Part shown: positions 29,551-45,554 of the stretch, in pieces
How positions within the stretch are numbered: position 1 is the first letter of the stretch
Layout: every line of letters begins with the position of its first letter
NCBI GenBank assembly: GCA_027262695.1
Contig: GCA_027262695.1_4722.1
Origin: a phage
Strand: one strand, 5' to 3'
Length of the DNA stretch: 64,000 bases
Program-made: the position numbers and the translations under genes
Notes under the pieces: generated by a model
Database searches by the model: none
What the model was told of the DNA's origin: nothing
Seen by the model: the letters and a program-made list of their open reading frames with translations, nothing else

Positions 29551-30651
29551 TTATTTGGCTTCGTTAAAATAAATATCAACGGCACGTTCCGTTGCGTAGA
29601 GAAGACCCAGATTCACGGTCCCTACCACTTCCGGTGAACCGATGATACGGTTAGCGATACTGGTGCCACTGAAGATAGCATCAAGGGTGTGCCCGTCTTC
29701 GGTTTTGTTCACACCATGACCCACGGAAGAGACAACGGATTTTGCCTGTGCTGCGAAGGTACCTTTATCCCCCATTCCCGCACCCAGGTCGTAACGCATG
29801 AAAATACGGATGGCGATCTGGTTCTCGCCTAACGGATTACCGTCTATTCTCACGTTACTGTTGTTGATGCGTCCCGTTGTTGCTTCGTTGAGTTTCAGTT
29901 CCTTAACGCGTTTAGCTCGCGCTTTATCCGCTTCACCCACAAGTGCTGCCATGGTTTCACTCATGTCTTCAATCTGGGCACGATACAACACATCGATCTG
30001 TACGACTTCACCATGCACGTCAGCCCGTGGGTTATACTGACTCATACGGCGTAACGCTTCAACCGCTTCCTGACTTTCATCGCTCAGATCGGTCGCAATC
30101 GGTTCTTCCAGTGTTGCCAGGATCGTCCGAGGTTCAACATGATCGCCGATTTTCACCAAACCACGAATGTTGAGATGAGCGTCAACAATGAGCGTACGAC
30201 TCTTAATCGATGGTGTTACGAGACGATCAGCGAGATTGTCGAAGATATACGAACTGTCCTCGTGCGTTTCTGGAATATCCAAAATACCAACCAAAGACAG
30301 AACGCCTGCGCGCCAAACCACCTGACCTGGGTTCCACCAATCCCGTTTGAAATAAAGACGATGGAATACCACTACATCCTGATCCTTAACGCGATCACCA
30401 ACTTTATAATCGGTAATGAGATCGTGAGGATAATACTTACCTGGTCCTTTCCCGATTATCGTACCGAGTTGGAAAACCTCTTCCCCTAATTCTGGATCGT
30501 CGTATTGTATCGTAAGCGCTGTTTTGGTGACCTTCTTCACAACACCATCGCCTTGAGCAGCTGCTGCGAAGAGTTTACCAACACGATGCGCGATAACAGT
30601 CTCACCACCTGTACGCCATGGTTGTACGTCGTAACCTTCAGCAGCTATCAT
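29551..30651 (-). CDS. RNA polymerase beta-subunit segment, 3' exon (GDK catalytic-region motif)
   Basis: 366 aa ORF; ...YDLGAGMGDKGTFAAQAKSVVS aligns to the E. coli rpoB GDKMAGRHGNKGVIS region, and IGDHVEPRTILATL / PRADVHGEVVQIDVLY align to upstream rpoB segments; the frame stays open upstream to a stop at 30796..30798, so the exon probably starts between 30652 and 30795. Confidence 0.6.
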   Translation of the reverse strand: MIAAEGYDVQPWRTGGETVIAHRVGKLFAAAAQGDGVVKKVTKTALTIQYDDPELGEEVFQLGTIIGKGPGKYYPHDLITDYKVGDRVKDQDVVVFHRLYFKRDWWNPGQVVWRAGVLSLVGILDIPETHEDSSYIFDNLADRLVTPSIKSRTLIVDAHLNIRGLVKIGDHVEPRTILATLEEPIATDLSDESQEAVEALRRMSQYNPRADVHGEVVQIDVLYRAQIEDMSETMAALVGEADKARAKRVKELKLNEATTGRINNSNVRIDGNPLGENQIAIRIFMRYDLGAGMGDKGTFAAQAKSVVSSVGHGVNKTEDGHTLDAIFSGTSIANRIIGSPEVVGTVNLGLLYATERAVDIYFNEAK

Positions 30652-31148
30652 GCGGTTGTGCTGTATACCTATAAATACGAGACGCTTTGGCGAAATCCAG
30701 CAAAATACAATTACTGTGCGTCTAGATTGTTCAGATAAGGTCGTTAATCTTATCCCGGTGGTGATGATAGGTGCATCACCAACCCGCTTGCGCTCTCACG
30801 CAAGAGCAGACTATATCACATCTCGTTTCAAACGGTGCTTCTTCAGCGCCTCAACGAGAGTTCACTTCTTCCCAGCGCATCCAGCGCCATTCTCTTATCC
30901 AAGGAGAATGCCTCACTCGAGGGGTACAGGGGGATGAATCCCTTAGTCGTTGAACCGTCACCCTAGAACGTTTCACAACGATCCTTAGGCGATTGGCTGC
31001 GGATTGTCCTTAAGCTATTATCTGTTTTATAACCATACCGTCTTTCTTTTCAGAATCCGTTTTGGTCGATAACAGCGATGGATGTCTTCGCAATTCAGTG
31101 AATCTCATCTACATGTCGCCATATAGACGGACCCTGCTATTAAAAGCG
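30652..31148 (-). ncRNA. group I self-splicing intron (boundaries approximate) in the RNAP beta gene
   Basis: Minus strand carries an R-like element GGTTCAACGACTAAGGGATT (30956..30937) and an S-like element TGATATAGTCT (30818..30808) that can form P7 (GACTA/TAGTC), followed by a P9-like hairpin (30806..30786); no ORF >60 aa in the correct orientation. Confidence 0.55.
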
Positions 31149-34100
31149 TTAATCATCTCTGTCGGCAGCAGGTACTGCAAGTGCCGATGTACTCATTATT
31201 GACGAGCTACCATCCGTTTTCTCGTCGTAAGGTTTTGTTTCACCGTATACAGACACGATGTTTGCGTTAGGTGCAAGATAAGCAGAGATACCTACATCGC
31301 CACTGTCCTTCGTACCTTCAGATACCACACCGATGTCTGACTTGTCGTATTCACGATCGCGTGCGCGTCGAAGCGATGTTTTCGAACGACCCCCGATACC
31401 GGTCATCGTTGCTTCTTCACCCTGCTTGATATCCAACATCGGGTTGGTTTCATCGATGACAATAGAAGCACTGTCGTCAAGGATTTGGTTCCAAACGCTC
31501 ACCGGACTGATTGAGATCTTCTGTCGGTTGCCTTGGCTGCTGTTCTCGTTTTGACGAATAGCACCAACCAGATCCTTATACACCAACTCAGCGAACTTAT
31601 CGTACGTTTTGAAGCGCTGGTAGTTCACATCGTTCGTGTTCGGTGCCCAATCATCCAGAAGCAGTTCAACAGCACGTAATAACAACATGGCGAAATCAGT
31701 CGGTTCACCCATGTTCTGCAATAATGTACGACTTACCGGGTCGACGAAAAGACGCTCCATGAGTTCAAGTTCGCGAAGATGACGAACCTTAAGACCTGCA
31801 CCATCGACAACGTTAAAATAGATATCCCGATTGTCAAAAGCGCCGCGAGCGTAACCGATGTAATTACGGTATTCGTTAAATCCACCCAACAACAATGTCG
31901 TCATTCGATCATCTTTACTGAAGATCAAACTTTCATCGTCGAAGCTTACCGCGAATTCATCCGATGCTAAGCCCATACGAGAACCACGAACTACCGTACG
32001 GTAGTTCGCTTTAAGATGTTCTAATAACGGAGTAAGTCCGCCTAGGTAACTTAGCACAACGCCAACCGGGATACGTACGCCCATGAACTCAAGGTCAGCG
32101 GCTTCGATAGGCATCTTCGCGGCATTGATACCGAAGAAATCAGGGAACGTTCCAACCGGCGTTGGGGTTTGATTCGGTTCGTAAACGTACAACTGATTCT
32201 GATTATCCACCGCCAGGAATTCACCGTTGGTGTTTTTGGCGAACGTTAAGAATCCACCCGCCAGCTGTTCGGTGAACAAATCTGCGCCGATATGTTCTGG
32301 CAACGTTTTGATATCGAGGCGTATGTCCCAATCCGCAAATTGAATTTGGGTGTAGTTACGCGCAAGCACAGCGAAGTAATACGGAACTTTGACAGCCGGA
32401 TCAAAGACGTTACCACGTTTTAAGGTGGTTAGCGGGGAGGTTTTATCGTAATACATCGCTGTGAGTTGACGTGTTAACCAACGACCAGCATTATTCACGA
32501 CACGCTCTGAACGTTTAACAAACACCTTACCGTAGGCGGTACTCAACGCAACTTCGGATGATGATACCTTTCTGATAGGTTTATCAACACGTTGTTTACG
32601 CATCCGGTATTTAATACCGTTAACGACATAAATACCGTCCTTACGAACCTTCGGTAACATCACCGGGAACGTCGTTGGAACACCACCCACCGGAGCCAGC
32701 TTGATCGTGATGACCTGGTAATCACCCATCACGTCAACAACATCTTCAACTTTATATCCGGTAACAGGATAGCCTGCTTGTTGCACTGCCACAACGGCCG
32801 CTGCGATGTCCTTTTGCATCACGTGTTCAACGTAATGTTTATCCCACACCGCAAGCGTCGATTTACATAGGCTCTTATCGACGATAACATCCGCTTCCGG
32901 CATAACCTTTGCTGGCGCTAATTTCGCGGCTTTTGGTTTAACCTCAACGTATTCAGCAAGCGTTAGTCCAGAACCGTCAGGTGCTTCAATTTCATGAATC
33001 GCGTCAGCGTTACGCATCGCGGCTTTATATTGAACGCCGCTTAATTGACCCGCATCCGCGAGGTCGCTCGCACGTACCAACACCGCATCGGATAACGACT
33101 GAATATATTCACCGTGCGTTTTCGGCAACGTTGCCGCATCGAAGACATCATCTTTTTCTTCCGGCACGTCGTCGTTGACGACCTCAAAGAGATCATCGGT
33201 GATGTCTTGATCTTCGTCCGGTTGAAAATCGGGCTGAACTTCAACGCCCGGGACTTCACGAACATCTTCGAACGCACGCTCAACAACCGCGTTCCATGCT
33301 TCAGCGTCGTCATCCTCATCCGATCCTCCGATCAACTCGCTTTCCAGTTCATCGGGGTCAAGAACGGTATCGAGATCCTCACCGTTAGGAAGCACGACAT
33401 CACGTTCATCGTACTCCGCATCGGGACTGTCTGCGAGAATATCACGCTCCTGACGAAGAACCTGCTCCTCTTCTTGTTTCTGTTCTTCTTCGTTGGCGCT
33501 CTGCGACCACAGACGGGTTACCGCCATCATCCAACGACGCTGGAATGTTTCAAGCGTTGTCTTATCAAGTTCCTCGCCTTCCTTCGCCAAACCCGAACGC
33601 CATTCTTCCATTAAACCAAGATTCAGGGTAAAGAAATAGACGCCGTCCGTAAATACAACGTTAAGCTTATCCAGCGAAGCACGATCCAATGACGCCATCG
33701 TACTGTTCTCACGATCGACACCTAACCAGCGGAAGAAGTCAAAGAACGACAGCTCCTCTGAGGTGGCAAAATTCATGAGGTTATTACGGGTTGGGGCTTG
33801 TTGTGTCGTACGCATCAACGATATCTTCGGTAACGTCGACGGGATACGGAATAACAAGAACTGCTGACGGTCGCTTTGCTTGGCGATCTCGTTTGCTTGC
33901 GTCCAAATCGTTTTACGCACGTTGAACCACTCATCATACCAACGTGTTAGCGTCGGACGATAGATGTACATGTGGTTAAGATGCGCATAGTTAGCCACGA
34001 TCTGGGCGTTGATGTTCTTCTCAACCTTGCTAAGATCGGTGACCAAACGAAAACGACGATGCGATGCACGGTAATCCAGTTTCGCACGCGGTAGCTGAAA

Positions 34101-34358
34101 TCGCTGATCGCGTCGAGGCGCGCCTTGCTTGGTTGCGAGGTCATCCGCGAACGATATCCAAAGCTGTGCACTTTCTTTGCTCAGCATGTATTCGTTTTCA
34201 GGAGGACCTATTAACGAAGGATCGGTTGCTGTGTAATGATAAACAGCATAACGCGGCAGCTGCAAAAGCTGCACCAAACGCAATCTAGGTGATAATAACT
34301 CTTGATAACGTCGTACACCGAATTGTCTGTAGTAATCAAGGTATTTAAGTTTTGCCAT
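31149..34358 (-). CDS. RNA polymerase beta-like subunit, N-terminal and middle part (5' exon), with a long N-terminal extension
   Basis: 1069 aa; C-terminal region NPMLDIKQGEEATMTGIGGRSK...VSVYGETKPY aligns to the rpoB fork segment [26 protein letters not shown]...LSVYAQTNEY; own ATG with a GGAG RBS; acidic low-complexity insert. Confidence 0.65.
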   Translation of the reverse strand: MAKLKYLDYYRQFGVRRYQELLSPRLRLVQLLQLPRYAVYHYTATDPSLIGPPENEYMLSKESAQLWISFADDLATKQGAPRRDQRFQLPRAKLDYRASHRRFRLVTDLSKVEKNINAQIVANYAHLNHMYIYRPTLTRWYDEWFNVRKTIWTQANEIAKQSDRQQFLLFRIPSTLPKISLMRTTQQAPTRNNLMNFATSEELSFFDFFRWLGVDRENSTMASLDRASLDKLNVVFTDGVYFFTLNLGLMEEWRSGLAKEGEELDKTTLETFQRRWMMAVTRLWSQSANEEEQKQEEEQVLRQERDILADSPDAEYDERDVVLPNGEDLDTVLDPDELESELIGGSDEDDDAEAWNAVVERAFEDVREVPGVEVQPDFQPDEDQDITDDLFEVVNDDVPEEKDDVFDAATLPKTHGEYIQSLSDAVLVRASDLADAGQLSGVQYKAAMRNADAIHEIEAPDGSGLTLAEYVEVKPKAAKLAPAKVMPEADVIVDKSLCKSTLAVWDKHYVEHVMQKDIAAAVVAVQQAGYPVTGYKVEDVVDVMGDYQVITIKLAPVGGVPTTFPVMLPKVRKDGIYVVNGIKYRMRKQRVDKPIRKVSSSEVALSTAYGKVFVKRSERVVNNAGRWLTRQLTAMYYDKTSPLTTLKRGNVFDPAVKVPYYFAVLARNYTQIQFADWDIRLDIKTLPEHIGADLFTEQLAGGFLTFAKNTNGEFLAVDNQNQLYVYEPNQTPTPVGTFPDFFGINAAKMPIEAADLEFMGVRIPVGVVLSYLGGLTPLLEHLKANYRTVVRGSRMGLASDEFAVSFDDESLIFSKDDRMTTLLLGGFNEYRNYIGYARGAFDNRDIYFNVVDGAGLKVRHLRELELMERLFVDPVSRTLLQNMGEPTDFAMLLLRAVELLLDDWAPNTNDVNYQRFKTYDKFAELVYKDLVGAIRQNENSSQGNRQKISISPVSVWNQILDDSASIVIDETNPMLDIKQGEEATMTGIGGRSKTSLRRARDREYDKSDIGVVSEGTKDSGDVGISAYLAPNANIVSVYGETKPYDEKTDGSSSIMSTSALAVPAADRDD

Positions 34359-34548: not shown

Positions 34549-35198
34549 TTCGCCTCAGTTCGCTACGCTGAGACCGCCTGCATGGATACGTACATGACAG
34601 GCTGCTTGCACTTTCATGCAAGAGGAGACTATATCAAACCGGCAGCTTCACCTTCTCGATCGTATCGAGAATGCGGTGCTGAAGTATTCTTCAGCAGCAC
34701 CTGCTACGGTAACCTACACTTCGAAGACGCTTGTCCTCTACAGGGTGGTAAATCCCTTAGTCGTTGAACCTGCGTTGTTTCCCATTCTTGGTTGCAAGAA
34801 TGCCGTATTACTACGCAACAACCAGGCTGCTGATTGCCCATTGTCTCGCACCTTAGCACCGCTTACGCGGCTTTTCTTTCAGCCTAAGCCTCTTACGGAG
34901 GTAGTGCATCTCAACTGTTGTTTCTGCCTTTCGGCACCCCATGGGTCGTTGAGCTTTAGGGGTTCCCAGCAATTCGTAGGTTTTTCAAGCACTCCCTTTC
35001 GGGAATACCGGACAACTTCCCTTGAAAAAAGTCTTTATTTTTCAAGGACTTATCCCCGCCGAGTCCCTGGAGGTACGGGCTCGGAATGCAAACCGTTTCT
35101 ACGAACGATGCTTTTTGTTTCCAATCAGGGTATTCCCATGCGATATATCGTTCGTCAGTAATCGGTTCCCAATTACTATCAAGTTCTGTCTTGGGAGA
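34549..35198 (-). ncRNA. group I self-splicing intron (boundaries approximate) in the RNAP beta-prime gene
   Basis: Minus strand carries R-like GGTTCAACGACTAAGGGATT (34770..34751), S-like TGATATAGTCT (34636..34626) and a P9-like hairpin (34622..34605) that shows a compensatory pair change relative to the other intron. Confidence 0.55.
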
Positions 35199-36518
35199 AG
35201 CGTTAACGGTTGTACGCGCATAACAGGTTAACGGAATGACTGACTGCATGCCCGATACCGGATAACGTGTTACCATCGCAGCCAGGTTGTTCCAGTATTT
35301 ATATCCTGCGATATAGATAAGCTCAGTATAAGTAATGGGGTGAACATCCGCACCAGGTTTGTTAAGCATCTCTGGCGGTATTTCACTCATACCGCGGAAA
35401 AGTCGGAATGAATCGTTGTTTACATAAACCAAACAGAGATAACGACCATTCACCATGATAGGTTCGTTACGTACGCCTGGATCGCTTAGCGTGTTCAATA
35501 AACGTTCGATACCATCCCAAGTAGTAAAGTCATCGATGGTGTCAGGATCAAGTACGACTCGTTCACGTTCCATCGTTTCGGTATCGATAAGCTCAACCTC
35601 GGTAACATCACGGACGAAGATCTCTTGCAAAATACCAGTACGTAATGCGTGTTGCGTTATCGGAAGGGCTGCTTTGCTCATCTGGTATAGACCAAGCTGT
35701 ACAGATGTACATGACGTTTGGTTTGGAGAACCGAGAACCTCCGTTGTGGGGTTAATTGCCGAAATAACGTTACGGGTTGAGTTCCAAACACGACGTGAAC
35801 CGAACTTACCTTGGAAGATCCCTTTCTTACCCTGGAACATATCCAACAGCAATGCGTAGATATCATTGAAGGTTCTTTGCAGGCTCCAGCGCTGTCCGTC
35901 GTAGACAGGATCGTTGTAGTCCTTTAATCCATCGGGAACGGTATTGGAGATAGCAAGGAAACGACGGTAGAGCTCCGTGATTTCTTGTTCGCTTTCATAC
36001 CCGCCTTCCTTTACTTCTATTTCACGAAGACCAGCAGGTAACACCAATAAATGACGGGTCATCGCTTTGAACATGTTTTCTTCGACAACTTTAATACGCA
36101 GTTCTCGTTGCGCTGAACCTGTTGAAACGAACTTGATCTCCGCAACGTGTTGTGCGAAGAAACCGTAGCCGGTTTGTCCCGTTAATGCGTCAGCAGCAAC
36201 GAAATCACGCTGTTCTGGATCCCATCGTGCATAAGCTTTACCGGACATGATATCGCCATAAAGGTGTTTCAATCGAATAAGGCGATCGTAAATGACCGGA
36301 TGCAAGATTTCCACTTTACACTCGATGACCGCAAAGCGGCGATCACGATCTTCACTACCCGCACTCCCAAAGATGGTGTATGAATAAAAACCATCATCAT
36401 GGAAATTACCCGTACTCGGGTCACGGATACTCATGCTGGTAATCTTAGGAAGGAAACGCAACTGCTGCTTATCAAGATGCAGTATACTGATATTGAACGG
36501 CTCTCTGACTTTAGCCAT
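35199..36518 (-). CDS. RNA polymerase beta-prime N-terminal subunit, 5' exon (ORF reads through into the intron to 34956)
   Basis: ORF 34956..36551; start trimmed to Met 12 (AAGGAG RBS); LPAGLREI...GGYESEQEITELYRRF resembles rpoC [44 protein letters not shown] resembles GKRVDYSGRSVI; homology ends near ...ARTTVNA (about 35199). Confidence 0.6.
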
Positions 36519-36691
36519 GGATGCACTCCTTAAATAAGGCGGCGGTATCATCTGAACACATGAGAGACGTAATGGGTGAAGCCATCACCCATCGCTTCCC
36601 TGCTTGATGCGAGGAAGGTATTAAATTACGTACCTGTCCGATGGCCTCGAACAGGCGATGTATGAAGCTATGCTTCAATTTGGAGGTATAC

Positions 36692-39600
36692 ATGGTAGAT
36701 AAAACCCGTGTTGAGGGTGATGATAATTGGGATAACTGGGATGAGGACTTCTCCCTGGATCTCGATTTTGATGAACCCAAAGACGACCGTAAGCCCATAA
36801 CCCGTTATGCAATAGGTGTCGCCAAAGGGGCTGCTGAAGATCTTACTTCCTACGAAAGAATGAAGGAGATCGCCAGAAACGCATTACCTAAGGGTTATAG
36901 CGACGGTATGGATCTTATCGATTCCGCCGTCGGATCCACGAAGGAACTATACAATGAAGCCGTTCGTGACATTCTTCCGAAGGTACAAAGCTCAAAACGG
37001 TTAGCCGCACAACTGACGAAAAAATACCGTGCGAGCATGCCCGATTTCTCGAAGAAAATTATCGAGCGTTGGGAGCAAGAAGCCAAGGAAGAAGACGAAC
37101 GTAAACAGGCGGAAGCCGATCTTAAACAACGCATGGCGAATGCAGGTGATGAAGAAATCGCTCGCAAGGTCGCTGAGGCGTTAGGAGAAGCGGCTAACCA
37201 GAACGCGGATCAGTTTGCAGAACAACAAGCAAAAGAAAGTATCCGTGACGATATTGCTGATAAACGTTATAATGTCACCAACAAACAGATGAGCGCGATG
37301 CAGGAAGGCATCGCCAAGATGGTTGGTTTCAATAACGAATTCGCCGCACGCTATATGCGTAAAAGCCTGGAACTAAAATACCGTTCTTTGGCGATACAAC
37401 GCGCGAGTTTCGATCAGCATAAAAAGTTAGCCGAAGTCTATATCGGTTTATTACAGAACATCCAAAAGAACACGGCTTTACCGGATGCGGCTAAAGCAAA
37501 AATGTCGGAAGAATTTCGTCGCACAGCGTACCAACGTTTCTTTGGTAACGCATTGAATGCGATGAGTTCTTTCGAGAACCGTTTCTTTGCTGATGTTAAG
37601 AAAAACCTTGCAACCAATGCGTTGGGTGCGTTGAAAGGTGTTGTGTCTGGCGCACACGACGCCCTCTCCGGTTTAAACGAAGCACGCGACTCGATGTCCA
37701 TGATGGACGGTATGGGGTCAGAAGGCGATATTAAGGAAATGCAAGGGAAGATGCTGGGTCAGTTGATCGGCTCAACCGTTGCACCATGGATGGCGAATAA
37801 AGGCATGACGGCATTGCGGGATTTAGCAAAACGTCATCCTAACGCTAAATTCGCCAACGCGTTAAAAGCGGTCGATCAAGGCGGTGAAGCTGCTGCTTAT
37901 ACAACGCGTAACGTTGGGAAACTGCTGCAAGAAGATCTTCGTAAAAACGAATTCAACCTCAGCGATCCCTTCTACAAACAGTTCCTGCGTGGGGCTGGAC
38001 GTTGGGCCTTCAATCTGGACGGTGGTCGTAACTTCCGTGTGATGAACGACACCGCGGAGACGTTAGCTGAACAAACATCTTTCGATGGTTTAACCTATCG
38101 TAGCATCAACGAGGTCATTCCCGGATTTCTTGCTCGTATACTGAAAAGCACTGAAGGTATCCGTACCGGTGAAAATGATCCTGATTACGAGGTCTATGAT
38201 GGCATCAGCGGGCAATTCGTTGCTCAACGTACCCGCGAACAAGGTGTAACCGACACCCTCTTTAACAAACGTTCGTTCGGTTATTACGCCGGTCGTTTTA
38301 ATGAAGTTATCTCGGTTATCGATCCCGATAAACAGCTGTCAGAAAAGGCAAGGAAAGCCTTGGCTAAACAGTTAGCACGCGACAGCGATGCGAACATGGC
38401 TTTCGATCCTGCTCGATATACCGACGAAAGTAACTTTGATCGCAGCATCGATAGAGACGCCATTAAAGAACTTTCTGCGTATTTCAAAGATCGTTACGGC
38501 ATTCGTGACGATGTTGATGATGAAGGTAACCGTCAACAGGTTATTGAAAACCGTGGGCAGTACTACACGGAACGTAACCGCGCTGATCTGCGGTACGGTA
38601 ATCTGAAATCCTTGCAGCCGGATATCCAACGCAACCTTAACCTTCTGAAACGTACCGGTGATGTTCAATACCTGGAACGCATCGGGATCGTAACAAGAAA
38701 CAGCGATGGCAGTTATTCGGTTAATCACGATCGTTACTTCTCTGAAATCGATCAATACATCGACCGACCGGAATACGCTGACCGTGGTGATGTTAACACG
38801 CGACTCAGTGCCCAACAGACCAGGGCGTTGGCGTTAGGCTATCGTGACGACGTTGCGTCAAACGCTGACGTACAAAATCGTGCGTTACCAAACCTCGATC
38901 GAACAACGGTCGGAACGGTAAACATCGATGAGAACATCGGATACGAGAAATGGTGGAACGATGCGGGTGTTATCACCACATCGCTTGAAGACCAAAATCG
39001 AGCATGGCAAGAACTCTATCTTGAAGCGCTTCAGGAAGCTTCGCATCAACGTGAAACGATGCTGGAACTTCTGAAAGCGATCTCAGAAAAAGAATGGGGT
39101 GGTAGCGGCGTTGGCCGCCAGGGCGAACCTGGCGGTGAAGAAAGTGATGATCGCTCTATGTTAGGTCGGATCTCCGACCTAACACTAGGTAAAGCCGGTA
39201 GCTATGCCTGGAAAGGTGCAAAAGGAGCTGCCAAGTTCGGATGGAAATGGGGTCGAAAAGCGGCGACATGGGGCGCAAAACGTACGTGGGGAAGCTTCGT
39301 AAACTCAGCGCGTCGAATTATCAACTTCAACCGTTTTGTGTTCGGTGCGTTATCCAAGGTCGATCAAGTTCCGTTTGACATTTACGTTAAAGGTGAAGAT
39401 CGTCCACGTATCTTAGCTGCAAAACTTCGTCAAGGTCTGTATTTCGATGAAGCCACCGGCAAAGCCGTCAAACGGATGAAGGATATTAAAGGTCCGTTAG
39501 TTGATGCTGACGGCAACATCGTCATCAGCGCTGAAGATATCGAGAAGGGATTGATTACGCGCGCTGGACGTGCCTTCGAAAACTCCGGTTTGAAAGCATG

Positions 39601-42600
39601 GGCACGTGAAGGTATCAACGGCATCACCACGGTATTAAGTTTACCAAGACTTTTAAAACGCGGTGCTACGGAGCTTTACAAGCATTTCGATAAAACACCT
39701 GACGTATACGTGACTGGTGAATCCACTCCACGTCTGCTTTCTCTGGTGATGGCGGCAGGCGGTTATTTCCGTAAGTCCGATGGGAAAGTCATCAAGCATC
39801 TGGAAGACATCGACGGTGATGTGGTTGACGCACAAGGAAACGTCATCCTGACCCACGCTGATATGCAGAAAGGGTTGGTCGATAAATACGGTAAGAAGAT
39901 ACGTCGCCTGAAAGAAAAGCTGATCAACTTCGGTGTGAAAGCTTTCACCTTACCGTTAACCTTATTGCGTAAGACAAAAGACATCCTGAAGAATCTCCCC
40001 ACGAAAGCCATGAACGGGTTGCGTCGTATGGGCCTGAACTTCCGTTTACCGGAAGAGGTGCTTATCGGTACAACCGCAGGCATGGTGGATCGTCTCGACG
40101 CTATTTATCAGCTTCTTGATAAACGCATGCCAGGTGGGGATAAGGATTATCGTGATTGGAACGGTGATGGTGTTCGTGAAGGATCGCTTGAAGATCTGAA
40201 ACGTAAACGCGCTGAGAAAGAAGGAGAAAAAGGAGAAGGTACAGGTAAAGGATCCGGGAAAGGAGAAGAGAAGGAGAAGAAAAAAGGAATTCTTGGGAGC
40301 CTTTTCGACATGCTTGGTGACACCGCACTTGGTAAACGTTTAATGGCGAGTCCGCTTGGAAAGATTCTGGGTGGCCTTGGATCCATTCTCAGCGGTGGTG
40401 CATCATTAACGGGGTTACTTGGGAAAGGTTTGCTTAAAGGCTCAGGCGCACTCCTCAGAGGGGGTTTAAGTGCTGCGGGTTGGTTAGGACGTGGTGCCCT
40501 GATGGCAGGCGGTGCTGCGCTTAATGCGGTAGGAGGATTATCCGGGCTTGGTGCTGCGCTTATCTCCCCGGTTGGGTTAGCGATTGCGGGCGGCGCATTA
40601 GCTGCCTATGCGGGTTGGAAAATCTATCAACATTTCGCTGATAAGCCTGACCCGATGCAGAAACTTCGTCTTATTGCATACGGTGCAAAAGGGGATGATA
40701 AGGACTTCAACAAGAAGTTATTGCAAACCGAAACCTACCTTACCGACCATGTGGTCATGACGGGAGATACCATCGGATTCAATCCAAAAGCAGATTCTGA
40801 AAAGATTCTTGAAATCTGGGAACTGTCATTGGAAGATACTGACCGGATGAATGAATGGAAGCGCTGGTATCTACATCGCTTTATCCCCGTTTTCGCTCGT
40901 GCGTTTAAACTCTGGAAAGAGCACATGCCGGACGAGAAGAAGTTCATGGAGATGGACGACTACCCCAACGGTGAGAACAAAGTCAAATGGTCAGAAGCCT
41001 TCATCTGGCCATCGGATAGTCCAGACAGCCCGTACTATGTTGAAGCTAACCCGTTAGGTTCGGCTGGCGCAACGTTATACATCGCGGGACAGGATGTTAA
41101 AAAGCTCATGGAAAGCCAGCTGGAAGTCATCAGGAAGGAATATCAAAACCAGATCAAGAAATACACGCACGATGAAGCGATTAAAGACTGGTCGAAGCTG
41201 TCTGACGCCCAACGTAAGTCCGTTGCGCCTAACGCGTTACGTGGACAGAAAGCCTCTTTACGTTTCAGCGATAACAAGTATAACAGTGCGGGTGTTAAAG
41301 GTCGTCAGAAACTGGACGCTACTGCGGTTGTTGAAAGCGTGGATCGTCGCGGTAAGAAATGGATGGCCGGTGGGTACATCGATGAACTTACCAGTTTACG
41401 TATCCGCGCCTACGGGTTAGAGGTTCCGCTGTTAAGCCAAATCAAGGTATTGATGGAACTGGAAGACGCGGTTGAACCTGGCGTTGTTGCTGAAGGTAAA
41501 GGCGTCAAATACGGCGGTAATCTCGCGGAGCTGTATAAGAAGTTCGCATCGAAATTCGGTCGGGATGTCAACGGCAAACAAGACCAGAACATCTGGTTTG
41601 CCTGGATGAACAACCGTTTCTTGCCGGTCTTCTTAACGTACTATCAGCAAGTTGGCGAGATGGGCGGACAAGGGCTGTTATCAGATGTTGTACAGAATCT
41701 GAAAGACAGCCAGCGTTGGGAAATCGGTGAGGCGTTGGTTGCTGCGCAATACAAGGATGAGAAGGGTGCGCTACAGCCGGTATGGTCGTGGAACAGTTGT
41801 GGTTTCTCTGGCACCAAAGCAAACATGTCCAGCAGTTCAACCAAGAGCCAACTCGATCTGTTAAAAGAATACGCAGATAAAGAGAAGGTTCGTGAGAAGA
41901 ACGCTGAAGCATCGCAGGAGGATGAAGATAAATTATCGAAAATCCAAGAGCAGTTGATGAAGCAAGCGGGATATGAGAAGAAGGACGGTGTTTGGCAGAA
42001 GAAATCACGTATCACGGGTGGGATGAGCAACGCGGAGGCGAACTACAATCCGAACCGTAACGAGGTTGGCAGAAGTAGCTTTACTGCTTCAGCAACCTCC
42101 AGCGCAGGTTTGGGTAGTGGTGGACCGGATATCACCGGGTTACCGAACATGGGACTGAAGAAACCCGCATCAGGTCCTGGTCCAGAAGCGGGTCGTCGTG
42201 CGGCAATTAAATCAGCGGTGAAGCACGGTATTACCGATCCGATGGAAATGGCGATGTTCTTATCGAACCTCGAACATGAATCCGGTAACTACAGGTATGT
42301 CCGCGAACTTAACTACACAAAACCCGACAGTCTGAAGAAAGCGTTCAGTCGTAAATTCAGGGATGAGCAGGACGCTGCCCAGACCATCAGCATGGGTCCA
42401 GAGGCGGTATTCGAACGTGTGTATGGAATGCGTAAGGATCTGGGAAATACCCAGAAAGGTGACGGAGCGAAATATCTGGGGCGTGGTTATATCCAGGTTA
42501 CAGGTAAAGCCAACTACGCACGATTGTCGAAGATCCTGAATAAAGATCTGGTTAGCGATCCATCGTATTTGGAAACCCCAGAAGGTGCAGCCGAAGGGAG

Positions 42601-43363
42601 TGTTGCGTGGTGGCTTAACAGGGGTAACGTATTACGCGATCCCGCAAAGCGTGGCGATGTTCGCCAGGTTCGTTACCTGGTTAACGGGGGGTATAACGGG
42701 CTACGCGATGTTGAGCAACGTTCAGCGTATTGGATTCAAGCTGCTAAAAGCGGTACATTGAAGAAAATGATGGATGAGGTTGCAGGTTCAACCTCAGACG
42801 ATCAAGCTGAAGGTCCGTCTACCGCCAGCCAAGTGAAGAACGAGGAGGCGCAAGAAACCAACAGCACACCAACATCAAGCAACGATCCGCAAGCACCGTC
42901 GGCAACCGCGACGCCTGAAGTCAAACCGTCAGCGGCCTCCGGTACCGCACCGGCACCCGGAACGGCAACACCGACACCAGGAAGTTTCGATACCGCAAAA
43001 GCTGCTGCTGGACAACCAGCGTCAACACCAGCGCCTAGCGAATTACCGTCAAACCCTGGTGCAAATCGAGGAATTTCAGTTCCAAATACACCTGCACAGG
43101 TTGCGCAGTCCGCAACACAAACATCGGCAGCAAGTGAAAACTTCTACGGTAGTGCAGGTGAGATTCTTCGTCAGCAGTTGACCGTGCAACAAAACATCGA
43201 GAAGAACACCGGTAAGACCAACGAACTGATCTCAGAATTGATCCAGGCTGTTAAAGGATCAACGATCGGTAAAGGTTCGACAGGATCTTCTCAACAACAG
43301 ACGATGTCGCTACCTAATCGTCCGCAAGGAATCTCTCCAACACGGACAAGGTACGCGCAGTAG
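36692..43363 (+). CDS. giant virion-associated protein with a C-terminal GH19 lysozyme-like domain (tape-measure or ejection-type)
   Basis: ORF 36641..43363 trimmed to the ATG after a GGAGG RBS; coiled-coil-rich N-terminal two thirds, Gly-rich hydrophobic block, GH19 motifs LEHESGN and YLGRGYIQVTGKANY plus SVAWWLNRG (about 42200..42760), then an Ala/Pro/Thr-rich tail; length close to phiKZ gp181 as recalled. Confidence 0.75.
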   Translation: MVDKTRVEGDDNWDNWDEDFSLDLDFDEPKDDRKPITRYAIGVAKGAAEDLTSYERMKEIARNALPKGYSDGMDLIDSAVGSTKELYNEAVRDILPKVQSSKRLAAQLTKKYRASMPDFSKKIIERWEQEAKEEDERKQAEADLKQRMANAGDEEIARKVAEALGEAANQNADQFAEQQAKESIRDDIADKRYNVTNKQMSAMQEGIAKMVGFNNEFAARYMRKSLELKYRSLAIQRASFDQHKKLAEVYIGLLQNIQKNTALPDAAKAKMSEEFRRTAYQRFFGNALNAMSSFENRFFADVKKNLATNALGALKGVVSGAHDALSGLNEARDSMSMMDGMGSEGDIKEMQGKMLGQLIGSTVAPWMANKGMTALRDLAKRHPNAKFANALKAVDQGGEAAAYTTRNVGKLLQEDLRKNEFNLSDPFYKQFLRGAGRWAFNLDGGRNFRVMNDTAETLAEQTSFDGLTYRSINEVIPGFLARILKSTEGIRTGENDPDYEVYDGISGQFVAQRTREQGVTDTLFNKRSFGYYAGRFNEVISVIDPDKQLSEKARKALAKQLARDSDANMAFDPARYTDESNFDRSIDRDAIKELSAYFKDRYGIRDDVDDEGNRQQVIENRGQYYTERNRADLRYGNLKSLQPDIQRNLNLLKRTGDVQYLERIGIVTRNSDGSYSVNHDRYFSEIDQYIDRPEYADRGDVNTRLSAQQTRALALGYRDDVASNADVQNRALPNLDRTTVGTVNIDENIGYEKWWNDAGVITTSLEDQNRAWQELYLEALQEASHQRETMLELLKAISEKEWGGSGVGRQGEPGGEESDDRSMLGRISDLTLGKAGSYAWKGAKGAAKFGWKWGRKAATWGAKRTWGSFVNSARRIINFNRFVFGALSKVDQVPFDIYVKGEDRPRILAAKLRQGLYFDEATGKAVKRMKDIKGPLVDADGNIVISAEDIEKGLITRAGRAFENSGLKAWAREGINGITTVLSLPRLLKRGATELYKHFDKTPDVYVTGESTPRLLSLVMAAGGYFRKSDGKVIKHLEDIDGDVVDAQGNVILTHADMQKGLVDKYGKKIRRLKEKLINFGVKAFTLPLTLLRKTKDILKNLPTKAMNGLRRMGLNFRLPEEVLIGTTAGMVDRLDAIYQLLDKRMPGGDKDYRDWNGDGVREGSLEDLKRKRAEKEGEKGEGTGKGSGKGEEKEKKKGILGSLFDMLGDTALGKRLMASPLGKILGGLGSILSGGASLTGLLGKGLLKGSGALLRGGLSAAGWLGRGALMAGGAALNAVGGLSGLGAALISPVGLAIAGGALAAYAGWKIYQHFADKPDPMQKLRLIAYGAKGDDKDFNKKLLQTETYLTDHVVMTGDTIGFNPKADSEKILEIWELSLEDTDRMNEWKRWYLHRFIPVFARAFKLWKEHMPDEKKFMEMDDYPNGENKVKWSEAFIWPSDSPDSPYYVEANPLGSAGATLYIAGQDVKKLMESQLEVIRKEYQNQIKKYTHDEAIKDWSKLSDAQRKSVAPNALRGQKASLRFSDNKYNSAGVKGRQKLDATAVVESVDRRGKKWMAGGYIDELTSLRIRAYGLEVPLLSQIKVLMELEDAVEPGVVAEGKGVKYGGNLAELYKKFASKFGRDVNGKQDQNIWFAWMNNRFLPVFLTYYQQVGEMGGQGLLSDVVQNLKDSQRWEIGEALVAAQYKDEKGALQPVWSWNSCGFSGTKANMSSSSTKSQLDLLKEYADKEKVREKNAEASQEDEDKLSKIQEQLMKQAGYEKKDGVWQKKSRITGGMSNAEANYNPNRNEVGRSSFTASATSSAGLGSGGPDITGLPNMGLKKPASGPGPEAGRRAAIKSAVKHGITDPMEMAMFLSNLEHESGNYRYVRELNYTKPDSLKKAFSRKFRDEQDAAQTISMGPEAVFERVYGMRKDLGNTQKGDGAKYLGRGYIQVTGKANYARLSKILNKDLVSDPSYLETPEGAAEGSVAWWLNRGNVLRDPAKRGDVRQVRYLVNGGYNGLRDVEQRSAYWIQAAKSGTLKKMMDEVAGSTSDDQAEGPSTASQVKNEEAQETNSTPTSSNDPQAPSATATPEVKPSAASGTAPAPGTATPTPGSFDTAKAAAGQPASTPAPSELPSNPGANRGISVPNTPAQVAQSATQTSAASENFYGSAGEILRQQLTVQQNIEKNTGKTNELISELIQAVKGSTIGKGSTGSSQQQTMSLPNRPQGISPTRTRYAQ

Positions 43364-43411: not shown

Positions 43412-45554
43412 CATGGGTATTCTTGTTCAAAACGCCCTCATCACAAAACAAGCCTTTTTATTACCCGGTGACAGCAGCACGCTTAGTGCTGACATGATTA
43501 AAGCGAGACATACACCCTATTCCTACGATAACGTCGATGATACAACACTGGGTGGTAACTGGGTACTTAACCCGCCACCGCAATATACGAAATTTGCTGA
43601 TATCAAAGAACGACGACGTGCGGTTATGCCTGGATCAACGGGCATGGGTCGAGGCTATAGTGAAAGCATCAACAGCTTTAAAGAAGTTGTTACCTTACGA
43701 TTCGGTAAACCGCGCTTTACCGGCGCAGCTATCTTCTTTACTGACTTCTACGACGCGGATGTTGCGGTTACCGTGAAAACCGGTCGCGATCCCGGTATTC
43801 TTTATTACGCCGCCAAAGCGTATACCACCGTGCTTTCTTACCTCACACCGTTACCCTATATCTACATGCTGGGTCGTATCGGTCGATACTTCATGGGCAA
43901 ACCGACCAGCCAGTATTATTATCAAGTACCGACCATGCACGTTTATTGGTCTTCGTTCCAGACGTTGGTCAACCAAGCAGCAATAAACATGGGTATTGTT
44001 GCAGGGATGGGTAAGGACAAAGGGTACGTTGAGGAAGGCGGTACTGTACTCCACCAATTCTCGATTGGTGGTCAGGATGTTGAAGAATTCATCAACTACG
44101 CTTCTAAAACGCTCCCAGGCATTTACAAGAAAGGCGGTGGGATCGATATCTATCAAATTGCAACACGTCGTCAGCGTATACAGAACGCATGGGTTCGACG
44201 TATTCAATCCATGATGGAAAACGATTACGCGTCTTACGAGGAATTCTGGAACGATCTTGATAAACGACTTGATAGCGGCGCGTTTCCATCGGACGTTACC
44301 GGTCGTACGCTAACACAATACCTTGCTGATACACAGAAGTCTGCTGTTTACAGTGCAGCAGCAGGTGATAACAAACAGACGATGGACGACCTGTTATTCG
44401 GAAGGGCTTCCTACAGCAACAAAGATGCTGATGCTAACTTCAATGTCTCTGCTGCCACCTCCGACGGCGGTACGTCAACACATAGTCAAGGTACGACAGC
44501 CAACGTCGGTAATTCAACATCAGGGACCACACAGGCTTCAACTACAGCATCAACGGCTGGAGGTGCGAACGTACAGAGCAAAGGCATCGGGCAAACGAAT
44601 GCGGCTGAAGAAGCGACGTTCCTTGATCTGATGGATGCTGAACTGGCCGATGGTGCTCAGTTTATCAGTTTTCGAGTCGATTCCGTAACCAGTGTAACCG
44701 AAACATTCTCAAACAGTGCATCGGAAAGTTCAATCGCTCAGACGATGAACAGCAAAGCGCAAGCGAACATCGAACGGCGCTTTACGTTGTCAGGTGGTCA
44801 AACCGGTTGGGGTACGCTGGACGCGGCGATAAAGGGTGTGTCGGATACCATCAACGGTGCTATTTCAGGAATGGGTTTGGATGGTATCTTTGGTGCCTTC
44901 ATGGGTTCTGGCTTCGCAGACATTCCAAAGTTCTATTCTGGGTCATCGGTAAGCCTTCCACGTGCAGATCTGACAATGGAATTACGTTCCTGGAGTGGAG
45001 ATCGTTGGTCGATCTTTACGAACCTCATGGTACCGCTTTTAGCGATCCTTGCAGGCGGTTTACCGCAGTCTACCGGTAAATCGTCTTACGGGATGCCATT
45101 CATGTGCGAGTGTTATATTCCTGGTAAGGTCCAGATTAAAATGGGTCTTATTGATAATATCACAGTTACACGCCATGTCGGGAACGTGCCGTCAACACGT
45201 GAACGCTTACCGTTAGGTATTGATGTCAGTTTCAGTGTGTATGACCTGTCGTCGATCGTTGCAATGCCGATCACCACCACAGCAGCATCATTAGCAAAAT
45301 TGGATCCTCGTGGCTTCTTAAGTGATCTTCTTGCTGATGATACGCCGCTGAACAACTATCTTGCTGTGTTATCGGCGTTGACGCTTACCGAACAGGTTTA
45401 CATGGTCCCGGATTTAAGTCGTCGTATGCATAAGACCATGGCTGATATCGATAGTTTCTGGAGCAAAGGTAATTTTGCTAACTGGTTATCGGACACCATG
45501 CCTGGCAGGATAGCATCAGGGCTGTTATGGAAACGTACCGAACGACCGTTCTGA
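43412..45554 (+). CDS. hypothetical protein with Ser/Thr-rich linker (possibly structural)
   Basis: ORF 43377..45554 trimmed to the ATG with a GAGG RBS; follows the giant protein in the same direction. Confidence 0.6.

What the first reader, a model, noticed from the sequence alone, without database searches (positions are those of the whole stretch)
36692..43363. Giant 2240-aa virion protein with an embedded GH19-type lysozyme domain
The single ORF has a long coiled-coil-rich N-terminal region, a Gly/Ala-rich hydrophobic block typical of tape-measure proteins (about 40300..40620) and a GH19-like domain (LEHESGN, YLGRGYIQVTGKANY, SVAWWLNRG; about 42200..42760). It ends in an Ala/Pro/Thr-rich low-complexity tail. 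Its size and position beside the RNAP genes parallel the phiKZ giant tail protein as recalled, but the lytic domain here is GH19-like rather than a transglycosylase. It is probably the cell-wall-degrading ejection or tape-measure protein.
Basis: partly seen in the sequence, partly recalled or inferred. Interest (0 to 1): 0.55.

Follow-up and report, generated by a model that had tools for sequence, protein, structure and literature searches.

The report
Giant phage tail protein with lysozyme

Summary
The ORF is real. The maximal ORF is 36641-43363 (2240 aa). The likely start is the ATG at 36692, behind a GGAGG, which gives 2223 aa. The window comes from a relative of the nucleus-forming E. coli jumbo phage Goslar (81% nt). 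The protein is 87% identical to Goslar gp204 and colinear with phiKZ gp181 (24% identity, E 2e-46 and 2e-35), with the same gene order: virion RNA polymerase genes on the minus strand, then the giant gene, then a baseplate or tube-initiator gene.

The Gly/Ala/Leu-rich uncharged block (aa 1200-1317) is present in nearly all of 108 giant homologues. Their cell-wall-degrading module varies: SLT, GH19, M23, VanY, CHAP, phage lysozyme or amidase.

Published data place orthologues in the virion tail at about 3-8 copies and call them probable tape measures. The ruler function and the ejection mechanism remain inferred. Verdict: interpretation supported, already known, low interest.

The parts
36692..43363 (+). 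CDS of the giant tail protein (2223 aa plus stop); the maximal ORF starts at 36641
   Evidence: GGAGG at 36682-36686; a 99%-identical 2223-aa gene call in an independent assembly; 87% aa identity to Goslar gp204
36692..38011 (+). aa 1-440: acidic disordered N-terminus followed by long predicted helices; conserved in 107 of 108 homologues (aa 1-300)
   Evidence: AF2 DSSP gives 85% helix for aa 35-440 at pLDDT 40-80; phmmer on the family; PHROG 3201, E 5e-301
38087..38833 (+). aa 466-714: confidently predicted mixed alpha/beta domain carrying the family motif RSI.EVIPG.LARI..IRTG; no known fold
   Evidence: pLDDT 80-92; no Foldseek PDB hit with E<0.8; conserved columns I476, P477, L480
38834..39361 (+). 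aa 715-890: clade-specific, low-confidence or helical spacer
   Evidence: aa 600-885 is found in only 5 of 108 homologues; pLDDT <50
39377..40006 (+). Repeat A, two copies (aa 896-1000 and 1004-1105): a small beta-rich unit followed by a helix
   Evidence: 33% identity between copies, E 3e-21; 2-4 copies in 94 of 108 homologues; pLDDT about 80; no Pfam match
40154..40186 (+). DWNGDGVREGS (aa 1155-1165), matching the family-conserved motif D..GDG.R.GS just upstream of the hydrophobic block
40289..40642 (+). Gly/Ala/Leu-rich, nearly uncharged block (aa 1200-1317) with a TM-like segment at aa 1282-1310
   Evidence: an equivalent block is present in nearly all 108 homologues; AF2 gives disorder plus one helix at aa 1293-1317
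40646..41998 (+). Repeat B, two copies (aa 1319-1489 and 1564-1769): confidently folded family-specific domain with no known relative
42146..42793 (+). GH19 endolysin-type muramidase domain (aa 1819-2034); catalytic E1863 and E1872, water-coordinating T1937
42794..43090 (+). Ala/Pro/Ser/Thr-rich disordered linker (aa 2035-2133)
43091..43255 (+). C-terminal amphipathic helix (aa 2134-2188). Its core, aa 2158-2180, is conserved with 3-4 residue spacing across the family whatever the lytic module
43413..45554 (+). Downstream gene: orthologue of Goslar gp203 (tail-tube initiator in the baseplate hub)
   Evidence: colinear at 85% nt with Goslar; gene nt after the giant gene; PHROG 3181; role from the Goslar cryo-EM paper
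34956..36518 (-). Upstream divergent gene: virion RNA polymerase beta-type subunit (Goslar gp205, phiKZ gp180 orthologue)
   Evidence: PHROG 2986, E 2e-162

Best explanation
The gene encodes the giant tail-internal protein of a Goslar-like chimallivirus. It is the orthologue of Goslar gp204, phiKZ gp181 and SPN3US gp239.

Proposed mechanism:
1. A few copies (probably 3 or 6) sit inside the tail tube. The helix-rich N-terminal half runs along the lumen and probably acts as the tail-length tape measure. The conserved C-terminal helix anchors in the baseplate hub, next to the tube-initiator protein encoded immediately downstream.
2. On sheath contraction the protein is expelled ahead of the DNA.
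3. Its GH19 muramidase domain (aa 1819-2034; E1863, E1872, T1937) cuts the MurNAc-GlcNAc bonds of peptidoglycan locally.
4. The central Gly/Ala/Leu-rich uncharged block (aa 1200-1317) then inserts into the inner membrane to help open the route for DNA.

Shown here: the ORF, its modular anatomy, the GH19 fold and catalytic residues, homology and synteny with phiKZ gp181, and the swapping of lytic modules across the family.
Taken from the literature on orthologues: virion and tail location, low copy number, essentiality, and muralytic activity of the phiKZ SLT version.
Inferred: the ruler function, orientation in the tube, expulsion, membrane insertion, and activity of this GH19 domain.
For: GH19 module:
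- PHROG 181 endolysin, E 1e-50.
- PDB phmmer hits to GH19 endolysins 7r6s, 9ms7, 9eoi and 4ok7, E 4e-23 to 4e-18.
- H1862, E1863, E1872, Y1911, Q1935, T1937, N1998 and R2010 are identical to PaGH19Lys H50, E51, E60, Y103, Q127, T129, N188 and R197; I187 is V1997 here. PaGH19Lys is a proven muramidase, and E60Q abolishes its activity. E-E-T is the catalytic triad of the GH19 endolysin subfamily.

Family and synteny:
- 87% aa identity to Goslar gp204.
- BLASTP to phiKZ gp181 is colinear, E 2e-46 (aa 23-683) and E 2e-35 (aa 887-1621).
- phiKZ and the SPN3US-like protein carry SLT at the equivalent position.
- The divergent arrangement 'RNA polymerase genes, then the giant gene, then a baseplate gene' is the same in phiKZ, the SPN3US-like phage SPLA5c and Goslar.
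- The N-terminal half occurs in 248 phage records; every listed hit is a 200-320 kb genome.
- 108 giant homologues have variable lytic modules and a conserved hydrophobic block.

Tail location and copy number:
- Goslar gp204 was detected in purified virions with 34 peptides. By my reading of the table columns the estimate is 3.4-8.0 copies, and the row is labelled 'Tail protein'.
- SPN3US gp239, which that paper calls the tape measure protein, is absent from tailless particles.
- The downstream gene is the orthologue of the Goslar tube initiator gp203.

Shape:
- 85% predicted helix in aa 35-440.
- The C-terminal helix is conserved with heptad-like spacing.
Against: - No member has been shown to set tail length.
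- Neither the Goslar nor the phiKZ whole-virion cryo-EM paper mentions a tape measure, models this protein, or describes density in the tube lumen.
- The protein has about 2223 residues and several globular domains (aa 466-714, repeats A and B, GH19). That is more than a simple helical ruler needs for a tube of about 46 layers, roughly 1750 A, or about 1170 helical residues at 1.5 A per residue.
- My crude heptad test found no coiled-coil excess in the N-terminal half, and AF2 confidence there is low (mean pLDDT 57).
- Pfam GH19 scores 16.6-20.6 bits against a 25.5-bit cutoff.
- No tail-assembly-chaperone genes lie upstream, unlike the classical order chaperones then tape measure.
- No enzymatic data exist for a GH19 module of this family.
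Confidence: 0.72

Rival explanations
1. It is a baseplate- or hub-associated virion lysin (the older 'needle-like cell-puncturing device' view of phiKZ gp181). It digests peptidoglycan on infection but does not determine tail length; another factor would set the length.
For: A review lists phiKZ gp181 as a 'needle-like cell-puncturing device, putative trimer'. The protein has many globular modules and is longer than a ruler needs. The ruler function is untested.
Against: In the Goslar baseplate structure the spike (gp13), spike cap (gp48) and tube initiators (gp203, gp62) account for all hub density, without gp204, so it is not the needle itself. No other tape-measure candidate is reported among the Goslar structural proteins. 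SPN3US and phiKZ authors call it the tape measure. The scaffold has been kept at about 2.0-3.1 thousand aa across distant chimalliviruses.
Confidence: 0.17
2. It is an internal head or ejection protein, like T7 gp16 with its transglycosylase domain. It would be packaged with the DNA and the virion RNA polymerase encoded next door, and would form a trans-envelope conduit after ejection.
For: The gene sits beside virion RNA polymerase genes whose products are head-packaged (annotations). The hydrophobic block plus lytic domain resembles ejection proteins (established knowledge of T7 gp16).
Against: SPN3US gp239 is among the proteins missing from tailless, DNA-filled heads. The Goslar table labels the orthologue 'Tail protein' at about 5 copies. 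The gene is transcribed divergently from the polymerase genes and co-directionally with baseplate genes.
Confidence: 0.06
3. It is the phage's end-of-cycle endolysin, or a true chitinase as some records name it, rather than a virion entry protein.
For: GenBank annotations read 'putative chitinase' or 'endolysin' for orthologues. The closest structural relatives are free endolysins.
Against: The catalytic module is about 10% of a 2223-aa protein found in virions. GH19 endolysin-type enzymes such as PaGH19Lys have no chitinase activity. The family swaps in peptidases and transglycosylases at the same position, which fits a peptidoglycan target, not chitin.
Confidence: 0.03

Closest known systems
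Escherichia phage Goslar gp204 (YP_009820915 / QBO64023, 'putative chitinase' / 'tail fiber protein')
   Same: Direct orthologue. It is 87% identical over the full length, with the same GH19 module, hydrophobic block, repeats and flanking genes. It was detected in virions at about 3-8 copies and labelled a tail protein.
   Different: 13% sequence divergence. The Goslar annotation starts 31 codons further upstream. The neighbouring RNA polymerase region differs in intron content.
Pseudomonas phage phiKZ gp181 (tail-associated peptidoglycan hydrolase, 2237 aa) and SPN3US gp239 ('tape measure protein')
   Same: Colinear scaffold: N-terminal region, repeat A, hydrophobic block, repeat B and C-terminal helix. 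Nearly the same size and the same synteny beside the virion RNA polymerase genes. The phiKZ gene is essential, and SPN3US gp239 is located in the tail.
   Different: Only about 24% identity. Their lytic module is an SLT lytic transglycosylase (PF01464, aa 1885-1978 in phiKZ), not GH19. An SLT enzyme is non-hydrolytic and yields 1,6-anhydro-MurNAc (established knowledge), whereas a GH19 endolysin-type enzyme is a hydrolytic muramidase.
Phage T5 Pb2 and other tape-measure proteins with built-in lytic domains (e.g. phiIPLA35, mycobacteriophage TM4)
   Same: Same logic: a long helical tail-lumen protein with hydrophobic, membrane-active segments and a C-terminal peptidoglycan-degrading module, expelled at infection (review table; established knowledge).
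   Different: No sequence relationship was detected. Those are siphovirus tails. Pb2 carries a peptidase-type module. The present protein is about twice as large and has extra family-specific domains.
Free GH19 endolysins (PaGH19Lys 9EOI, SPN1S 4OK7, KTN6 gp46 8P8E) and the T6SS effector TseP (8XCL)
   Different: Those are small (about 200 aa) soluble enzymes. The endolysins act from within at lysis, and TseP is delivered by a T6SS. Here the domain is embedded at aa 1819-2034 of a virion protein.

Membership tests
Glycoside hydrolase family 19, endolysin subfamily | Lysozyme-like, mostly alpha-helical bilobal GH19 fold | tested here: met
   [not shown]
Glycoside hydrolase family 19, endolysin subfamily | Two catalytic glutamates plus a Ser/Thr that positions the water (SPN1S E49, E58, T130; PaGH19Lys E51, E60, T129) | tested here: met
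   E1863, E1872 and T1937 align to them. H1862, Y1911, Q1935, N1998 and R2010 are also conserved, and I187 is V1997 here.
Glycoside hydrolase family 19, endolysin subfamily | Passes the curated Pfam PF00182 gathering score | tested here: not met
   16.6 bits for the whole protein and 20.6 bits for the domain alone, against a 25.5-bit cutoff; only profile positions 103-142 match. Goslar gp204 behaves the same way (18.3 bits). NCBIfam gives no hit. I attribute this to limited model sensitivity, given the fold and active-site results.
Glycoside hydrolase family 19, endolysin subfamily | Muramidase activity on peptidoglycan | not testable with these tools
   Needs a recombinant aa 1819-2034 fragment assayed on outer-membrane-permeabilised cells, with muropeptide analysis.
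phiKZ gp181-like giant tail protein of chimalliviruses (PHROG 3201) | Colinear homology of the non-catalytic scaffold | tested here: met
   PHROG 3201, E 5e-301. BLASTP to phiKZ gp181, E 2e-46 and 2e-35, colinear. N-terminal region, repeat A and repeat B are present in 71-107 of 108 homologues.
phiKZ gp181-like giant tail protein of chimalliviruses (PHROG 3201) | Conserved locus: divergent from the virion RNA polymerase genes and upstream of a baseplate or tube-initiator gene | tested here: met
phiKZ gp181-like giant tail protein of chimalliviruses (PHROG 3201) | C-terminal-third peptidoglycan-degrading module | tested here: met
   Present, but of GH19 type rather than the SLT of phiKZ. Across the family the type varies: SLT 58, GH19 10, M23 7, VanY 7, CHAP 6, PF18013 6, amidase_2 1.
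phiKZ gp181-like giant tail protein of chimalliviruses (PHROG 3201) | Virion (tail) component | not testable with these tools
   Literature on orthologues only: Goslar virion mass spectrometry and SPN3US tailless particles.
Tail tape-measure protein (functional class) | Protein length determines tail length | not testable with these tools
   No genetic data exist for any chimallivirus. phiKZ (2237 aa, 43 tube layers) and Goslar (2252 aa, 46 layers) are too similar to inform.
Tail tape-measure protein (functional class) | Long, largely alpha-helical or coiled-coil protein able to span the tube lumen | tested here: inconclusive
   56% helix overall and 85% in aa 35-440, but mean pLDDT is 57. The crude heptad test was negative in the N-terminal half. 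The C-terminal helix has heptad-like conservation. Several globular domains are present.
Tail tape-measure protein (functional class) | Gene lies directly upstream of baseplate-hub or tube-initiator genes, and the product is present in few (3-6) copies | tested here: met
   The copy number of 3.4-8 comes from the literature on the Goslar orthologue.
Tail tape-measure protein (functional class) | Preceded by tail-assembly chaperone genes (G/GT-type frameshift pair) | tested here: not met
   The upstream neighbour is a divergently transcribed RNA polymerase gene. This feature is not universal among myoviruses (e.g. T4), so it counts only weakly.

The most novel reading that the evidence does not exclude
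The family-conserved central cassette is more than a generic tape-measure membrane anchor. The cassette comprises the D..GDG.R.GS motif, the 120-residue Gly/Ala/Leu-rich uncharged block and the duplicated, structurally unmatched B domain. On this reading it is the chimallivirus-specific device that remodels the inner membrane at the tail tip and seeds or lines the lipid-bounded early-infection (EPI) vesicle into which these phages inject their DNA. The swappable lytic module would only clear the way.
Probability: 0.12. Interest if true: 0.7.

Novelty: already known. Interest (0 to 1): 0.2.

Why it matters
As an identification it adds little. The same protein is annotated in Goslar, and its phiKZ and SPN3US orthologues have been studied since 2008-2016.

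Its residual value is as a map. The family is a conserved scaffold of about 2000 aa with two uncharacterised repeated domains, a universal uncharged Gly/Ala block and a conserved C-terminal helix. At least seven kinds of cell-wall enzyme have been exchanged into it. How this protein leaves the tail, crosses the envelope and relates to the membrane vesicle that receives chimallivirus DNA is still open. The recent Goslar and phiKZ virion structures do not resolve it.

Tried and rejected
- Pfam and NCBIfam scans of the whole protein and of eight sub-segments found nothing above threshold except the sub-threshold GH19 match.
- Foldseek of the N-terminal-half model against PDB gave no hit better than E 0.8.
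- A 20-sequence profile of repeat B found nothing in PDB (best E 2) or Pfam.
- The crude home-made heptad scan did not support a coiled-coil-rich N-terminus. That scan is unvalidated, so I treat the point as inconclusive.
- I compared GH19 identity within the family (36-45% outside the Goslar clade) with identity to free endolysins (about 30-40%) to see whether the module was acquired recently. The two ranges are too close to decide.
- Tail-length scaling using phiKZ (43 layers) and Goslar (46 layers) is uninformative.
- Literature searches for a link between this protein and injection or EPI vesicles returned nothing relevant.
I used alignments of 33-34 sequences instead.

Full report
**1. 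The observation**

The window holds one uninterrupted plus-strand ORF, 36641-43363, of 2240 codons. That start is the better one. A 99%-identical protein in an independent public assembly was called at exactly 2223 aa, and the N-terminus of the protein family aligns to this Met. So '2240 aa' belongs to the maximal ORF and '36692' to the probable gene.

The Gly/Ala-rich hydrophobic block is aa 1200-1317 (nt 40289-40642). Its best 100-aa window has 47% Gly+Ala and 8% charged residues, and it has a TM-like peak at aa 1282-1310.

The Ala/Pro/Ser/Thr-rich low-complexity stretch is aa 2035-2135. It is not the end of the protein; about 90 further residues include a conserved helix.

'Coiled-coil-rich' is only partly supported. 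AlphaFold2 predicts 85% helix in aa 35-440, with helices up to 91 residues, but at low to moderate confidence. A crude heptad scan of my own did not exceed shuffled sequence there.

**2. Where the window comes from and what the orthologues are**

The gene is 81% identical in DNA and 87% in protein to gp204 of Escherichia phage Goslar, a nucleus-forming jumbo phage (Chimalliviridae). GenBank calls gp204 'putative chitinase' (COG3179) and RefSeq calls it 'tail fiber protein'. The surrounding 20 kb is colinear with Goslar at 83-88%.

The N-terminal 1200 residues find 248 phage records; every listed hit is a 200-320 kb genome, and they include phiKZ gp181. Direct BLASTP against phiKZ gp181 (2237 aa) is colinear at 24% identity, E 2e-46 for aa 23-683 and E 2e-35 for aa 887-1621.

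The locus is conserved. In phiKZ, in the SPN3US-like phage SPLA5c and in Goslar, virion RNA polymerase subunit genes lie on one strand, and the giant gene followed by a baseplate gene lies on the other. In the window the upstream neighbour is an RNA polymerase beta-type subunit (PHROG 2986, E 2e-162). The downstream neighbour is the orthologue of Goslar gp203, which cryo-EM shows to be one of the two tail-tube initiator proteins in the baseplate hub.

**3. The lytic domain**

Residues 1838-2046 match PHROG 181 (endolysin) at E 1e-50. They match solved GH19 endolysins 7R6S, 9MS7, 9EOI, 9MS6 and 4OK7 at E 4e-23 to 4e-18.

In the HMMER alignment, H1862, E1863, E1872, Y1911, Q1935, T1937, V1997, N1998 and R2010 line up with the PaGH19Lys active-site residues H50, E51, E60, Y103, Q127, T129, I187, N188 and R197. 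PaGH19Lys is a demonstrated muramidase that is inactive on chitin and is crippled by E60Q (PMC12329726). E-E-T is the conserved catalytic triad of the GH19 endolysin subfamily (PMC8547705).

The one failed test is Pfam's PF00182 threshold: 16.6-20.6 bits against 25.5, matching only the central motif. Goslar gp204 behaves the same way. I treat this as a sensitivity limit of a model I take to be weighted towards chitinases, not as evidence against membership.

**4. Anatomy of the rest**

Two AlphaFold2 models and family comparisons give the following layout.

| Residues | Feature | Conservation or evidence |
|---|---|---|
| 1-33 | acidic, disordered | - |
| 35-440 | long helices | aa 1-300 conserved in 107 of 108 homologues |
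| 466-714 | confident alpha/beta domain | no PDB fold match |
| 715-890 | clade-specific spacer | - |
| 896-1105 | repeat A, two copies | E 3e-21 between copies; 2-4 copies in 94 of 108 homologues |
| 1155-1165 | D..GDG.R.GS motif | family-conserved |
| 1200-1317 | uncharged Gly/Ala/Leu block | present in nearly every homologue |
| 1319-1489 and 1564-1769 | repeat B, two copies, pLDDT about 88 | nothing in PDB or Pfam |
| 1819-2034 | GH19 domain | see section 3 |
| 2035-2133 | disordered linker | - |
| 2134-2188 | C-terminal helix | core aa 2158-2180 conserved with 3-4 spacing across 33 members, whatever enzyme they carry |

**5. The family swaps its enzyme**

Among 108 giant homologues (1.7-3.1 thousand aa), precomputed Pfam hits show:
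- SLT transglycosylase in 58
- GH19 in 5, plus the 5 Goslar-clade proteins detected by phmmer
- peptidase M23 in 7
- VanY in 7
- CHAP in 6
- phage tail lysozyme PF18013 in 6
- amidase_2 in 1

Some proteins carry two modules. It is also one instance of a general pattern. Other isolated chimalliviruses whose matches extend through the GH19 region or are annotated 'chitinase' (EL, Miami, pAEv1810, AH04, Aeromonas D3 and D6) appear to carry the GH19 form too.

**6. What it does**

Literature on orthologues gives the location:
- Goslar gp204 was found in purified virions with 34 peptides and 24% coverage. By my reading of the column order in Table S4, the estimate is 3.4-8.0 copies per virion, and the row is labelled 'Tail protein' (bioRxiv 10.64898/2026.04.21.720040).
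- SPN3US gp239, called the tape measure protein, is among the proteins missing from tailless DNA-filled particles (PMC5105663).
- The C-terminal region of phiKZ gp181 is muralytic (review PMC5380687 citing Briers 2008).

The older idea that gp181 is the cell-puncturing needle does not fit the Goslar baseplate structure. There the spike (gp13), cap (gp48) and initiators (gp203, gp62) fill the hub.

The best-supported model has four steps. A few copies lie in the tube lumen (about 68 A wide in phiKZ), with the C-terminal helix lodged at the hub. Contraction expels the protein. The GH19 domain, tethered on a 100-residue flexible linker, hydrolyses peptidoglycan locally. The uncharged block then enters the inner membrane.

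The ruler function, the orientation, the expulsion and the membrane insertion are inferences by analogy with T5 Pb2 and other lytic tape-measure proteins. Neither virion paper models this protein or mentions a tape measure.

A simple length check is compatible but not diagnostic. Forty-six tube layers at about 37.7 A come to roughly 1750 A, or about 1170 helical residues, which is about half of the protein.

**7. Rivals**

- A hub-associated lysin that is not the ruler (0.17) remains possible because no length genetics exist.
- A head-internal ejection protein (0.06) is contradicted by the SPN3US tailless-particle data and by the direction of transcription.
- A lysis endolysin or a true chitinase (0.03) is contradicted by the size, the virion location and the exchange with peptidases at the same position.

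**8. Novelty and score**

The finding is a correct reading of an orthologue of proteins that are already annotated and partly characterised, including the GH19 variant, so I rate it 'already known' with low interest (0.2).

The most novel reading that the evidence does not exclude concerns the conserved central cassette: the motif, the uncharged block and the B domains. It could be the chimallivirus-specific membrane device that seeds the early-infection vesicle. I found no evidence for this beyond conservation and give it about 0.12.

Noticed in passing
window 30691-31151 (minus strand): An ORF-less group I intron (Rfam RF00028, 51 bits) splits the large virion RNA polymerase beta-type gene into ORFs 31149..34358 and 29551..30651. 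Removing about 461 nt restores a continuous 1448-aa ORF colinear with Goslar gp207, with a U at the end of the 5' exon and a G at the end of the intron. Goslar has no insertion at this site.
   Followed up: partly
window 34605-35037 (minus strand) and the 35014-35094 junction: A second group I intron (58.4 bits) corresponds to the intron annotated in Goslar (211817-212245). The adjacent 490-aa Goslar gene gp206 ('similar to phiKZ ORF179') has no counterpart here: Goslar 212226-213840 is missing. I suspect gp206 is a mobile or homing-endonuclease-type ORF but did not test this. The ORF 34956..36551 runs into the intron, so its true 3' end is uncertain.
   Followed up: partly
window 40154-40186 (aa 1155-1165): DWNGDGVREGS matches a motif conserved across the whole giant-protein family (D..GDG.R.GS..D), just before the Lys/Glu/Gly-rich stretch and the hydrophobic block. 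It resembles a DxNxDG calcium-binding loop but is not a canonical EF-hand.
   Followed up: no
window 39377-40006 and 40646-41998: There are two internally duplicated domains. Repeat A has 2-4 copies across the family; repeat B has 2-3 copies and is predicted with high confidence. Neither has any Pfam, PDB-sequence or fold match, so they are uncharacterised, family-specific modules.
   Followed up: yes
homologues P0024, P0052, P0053, P0063: Some family members sit on 140-490 kb contigs deposited as Caballeronia or Paraburkholderia genomes. One is named 'cell pole-organizing protein PopZ', presumably a mis-annotation driven by low-complexity sequence. These contigs may be jumbo-phage genomes or large prophage-like elements inside bacterial assemblies.
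   Followed up: no
Goslar records MK327938 / NC_048170 (L001, L002): Public annotation of the orthologue is inconsistent and probably misleading: 'putative chitinase' in GenBank and 'tail fiber protein' in RefSeq and PHROG 3201. The annotated Goslar start lies 31 codons upstream of the family-conserved N-terminus.
   Followed up: partly
[not shown]
   Followed up: no
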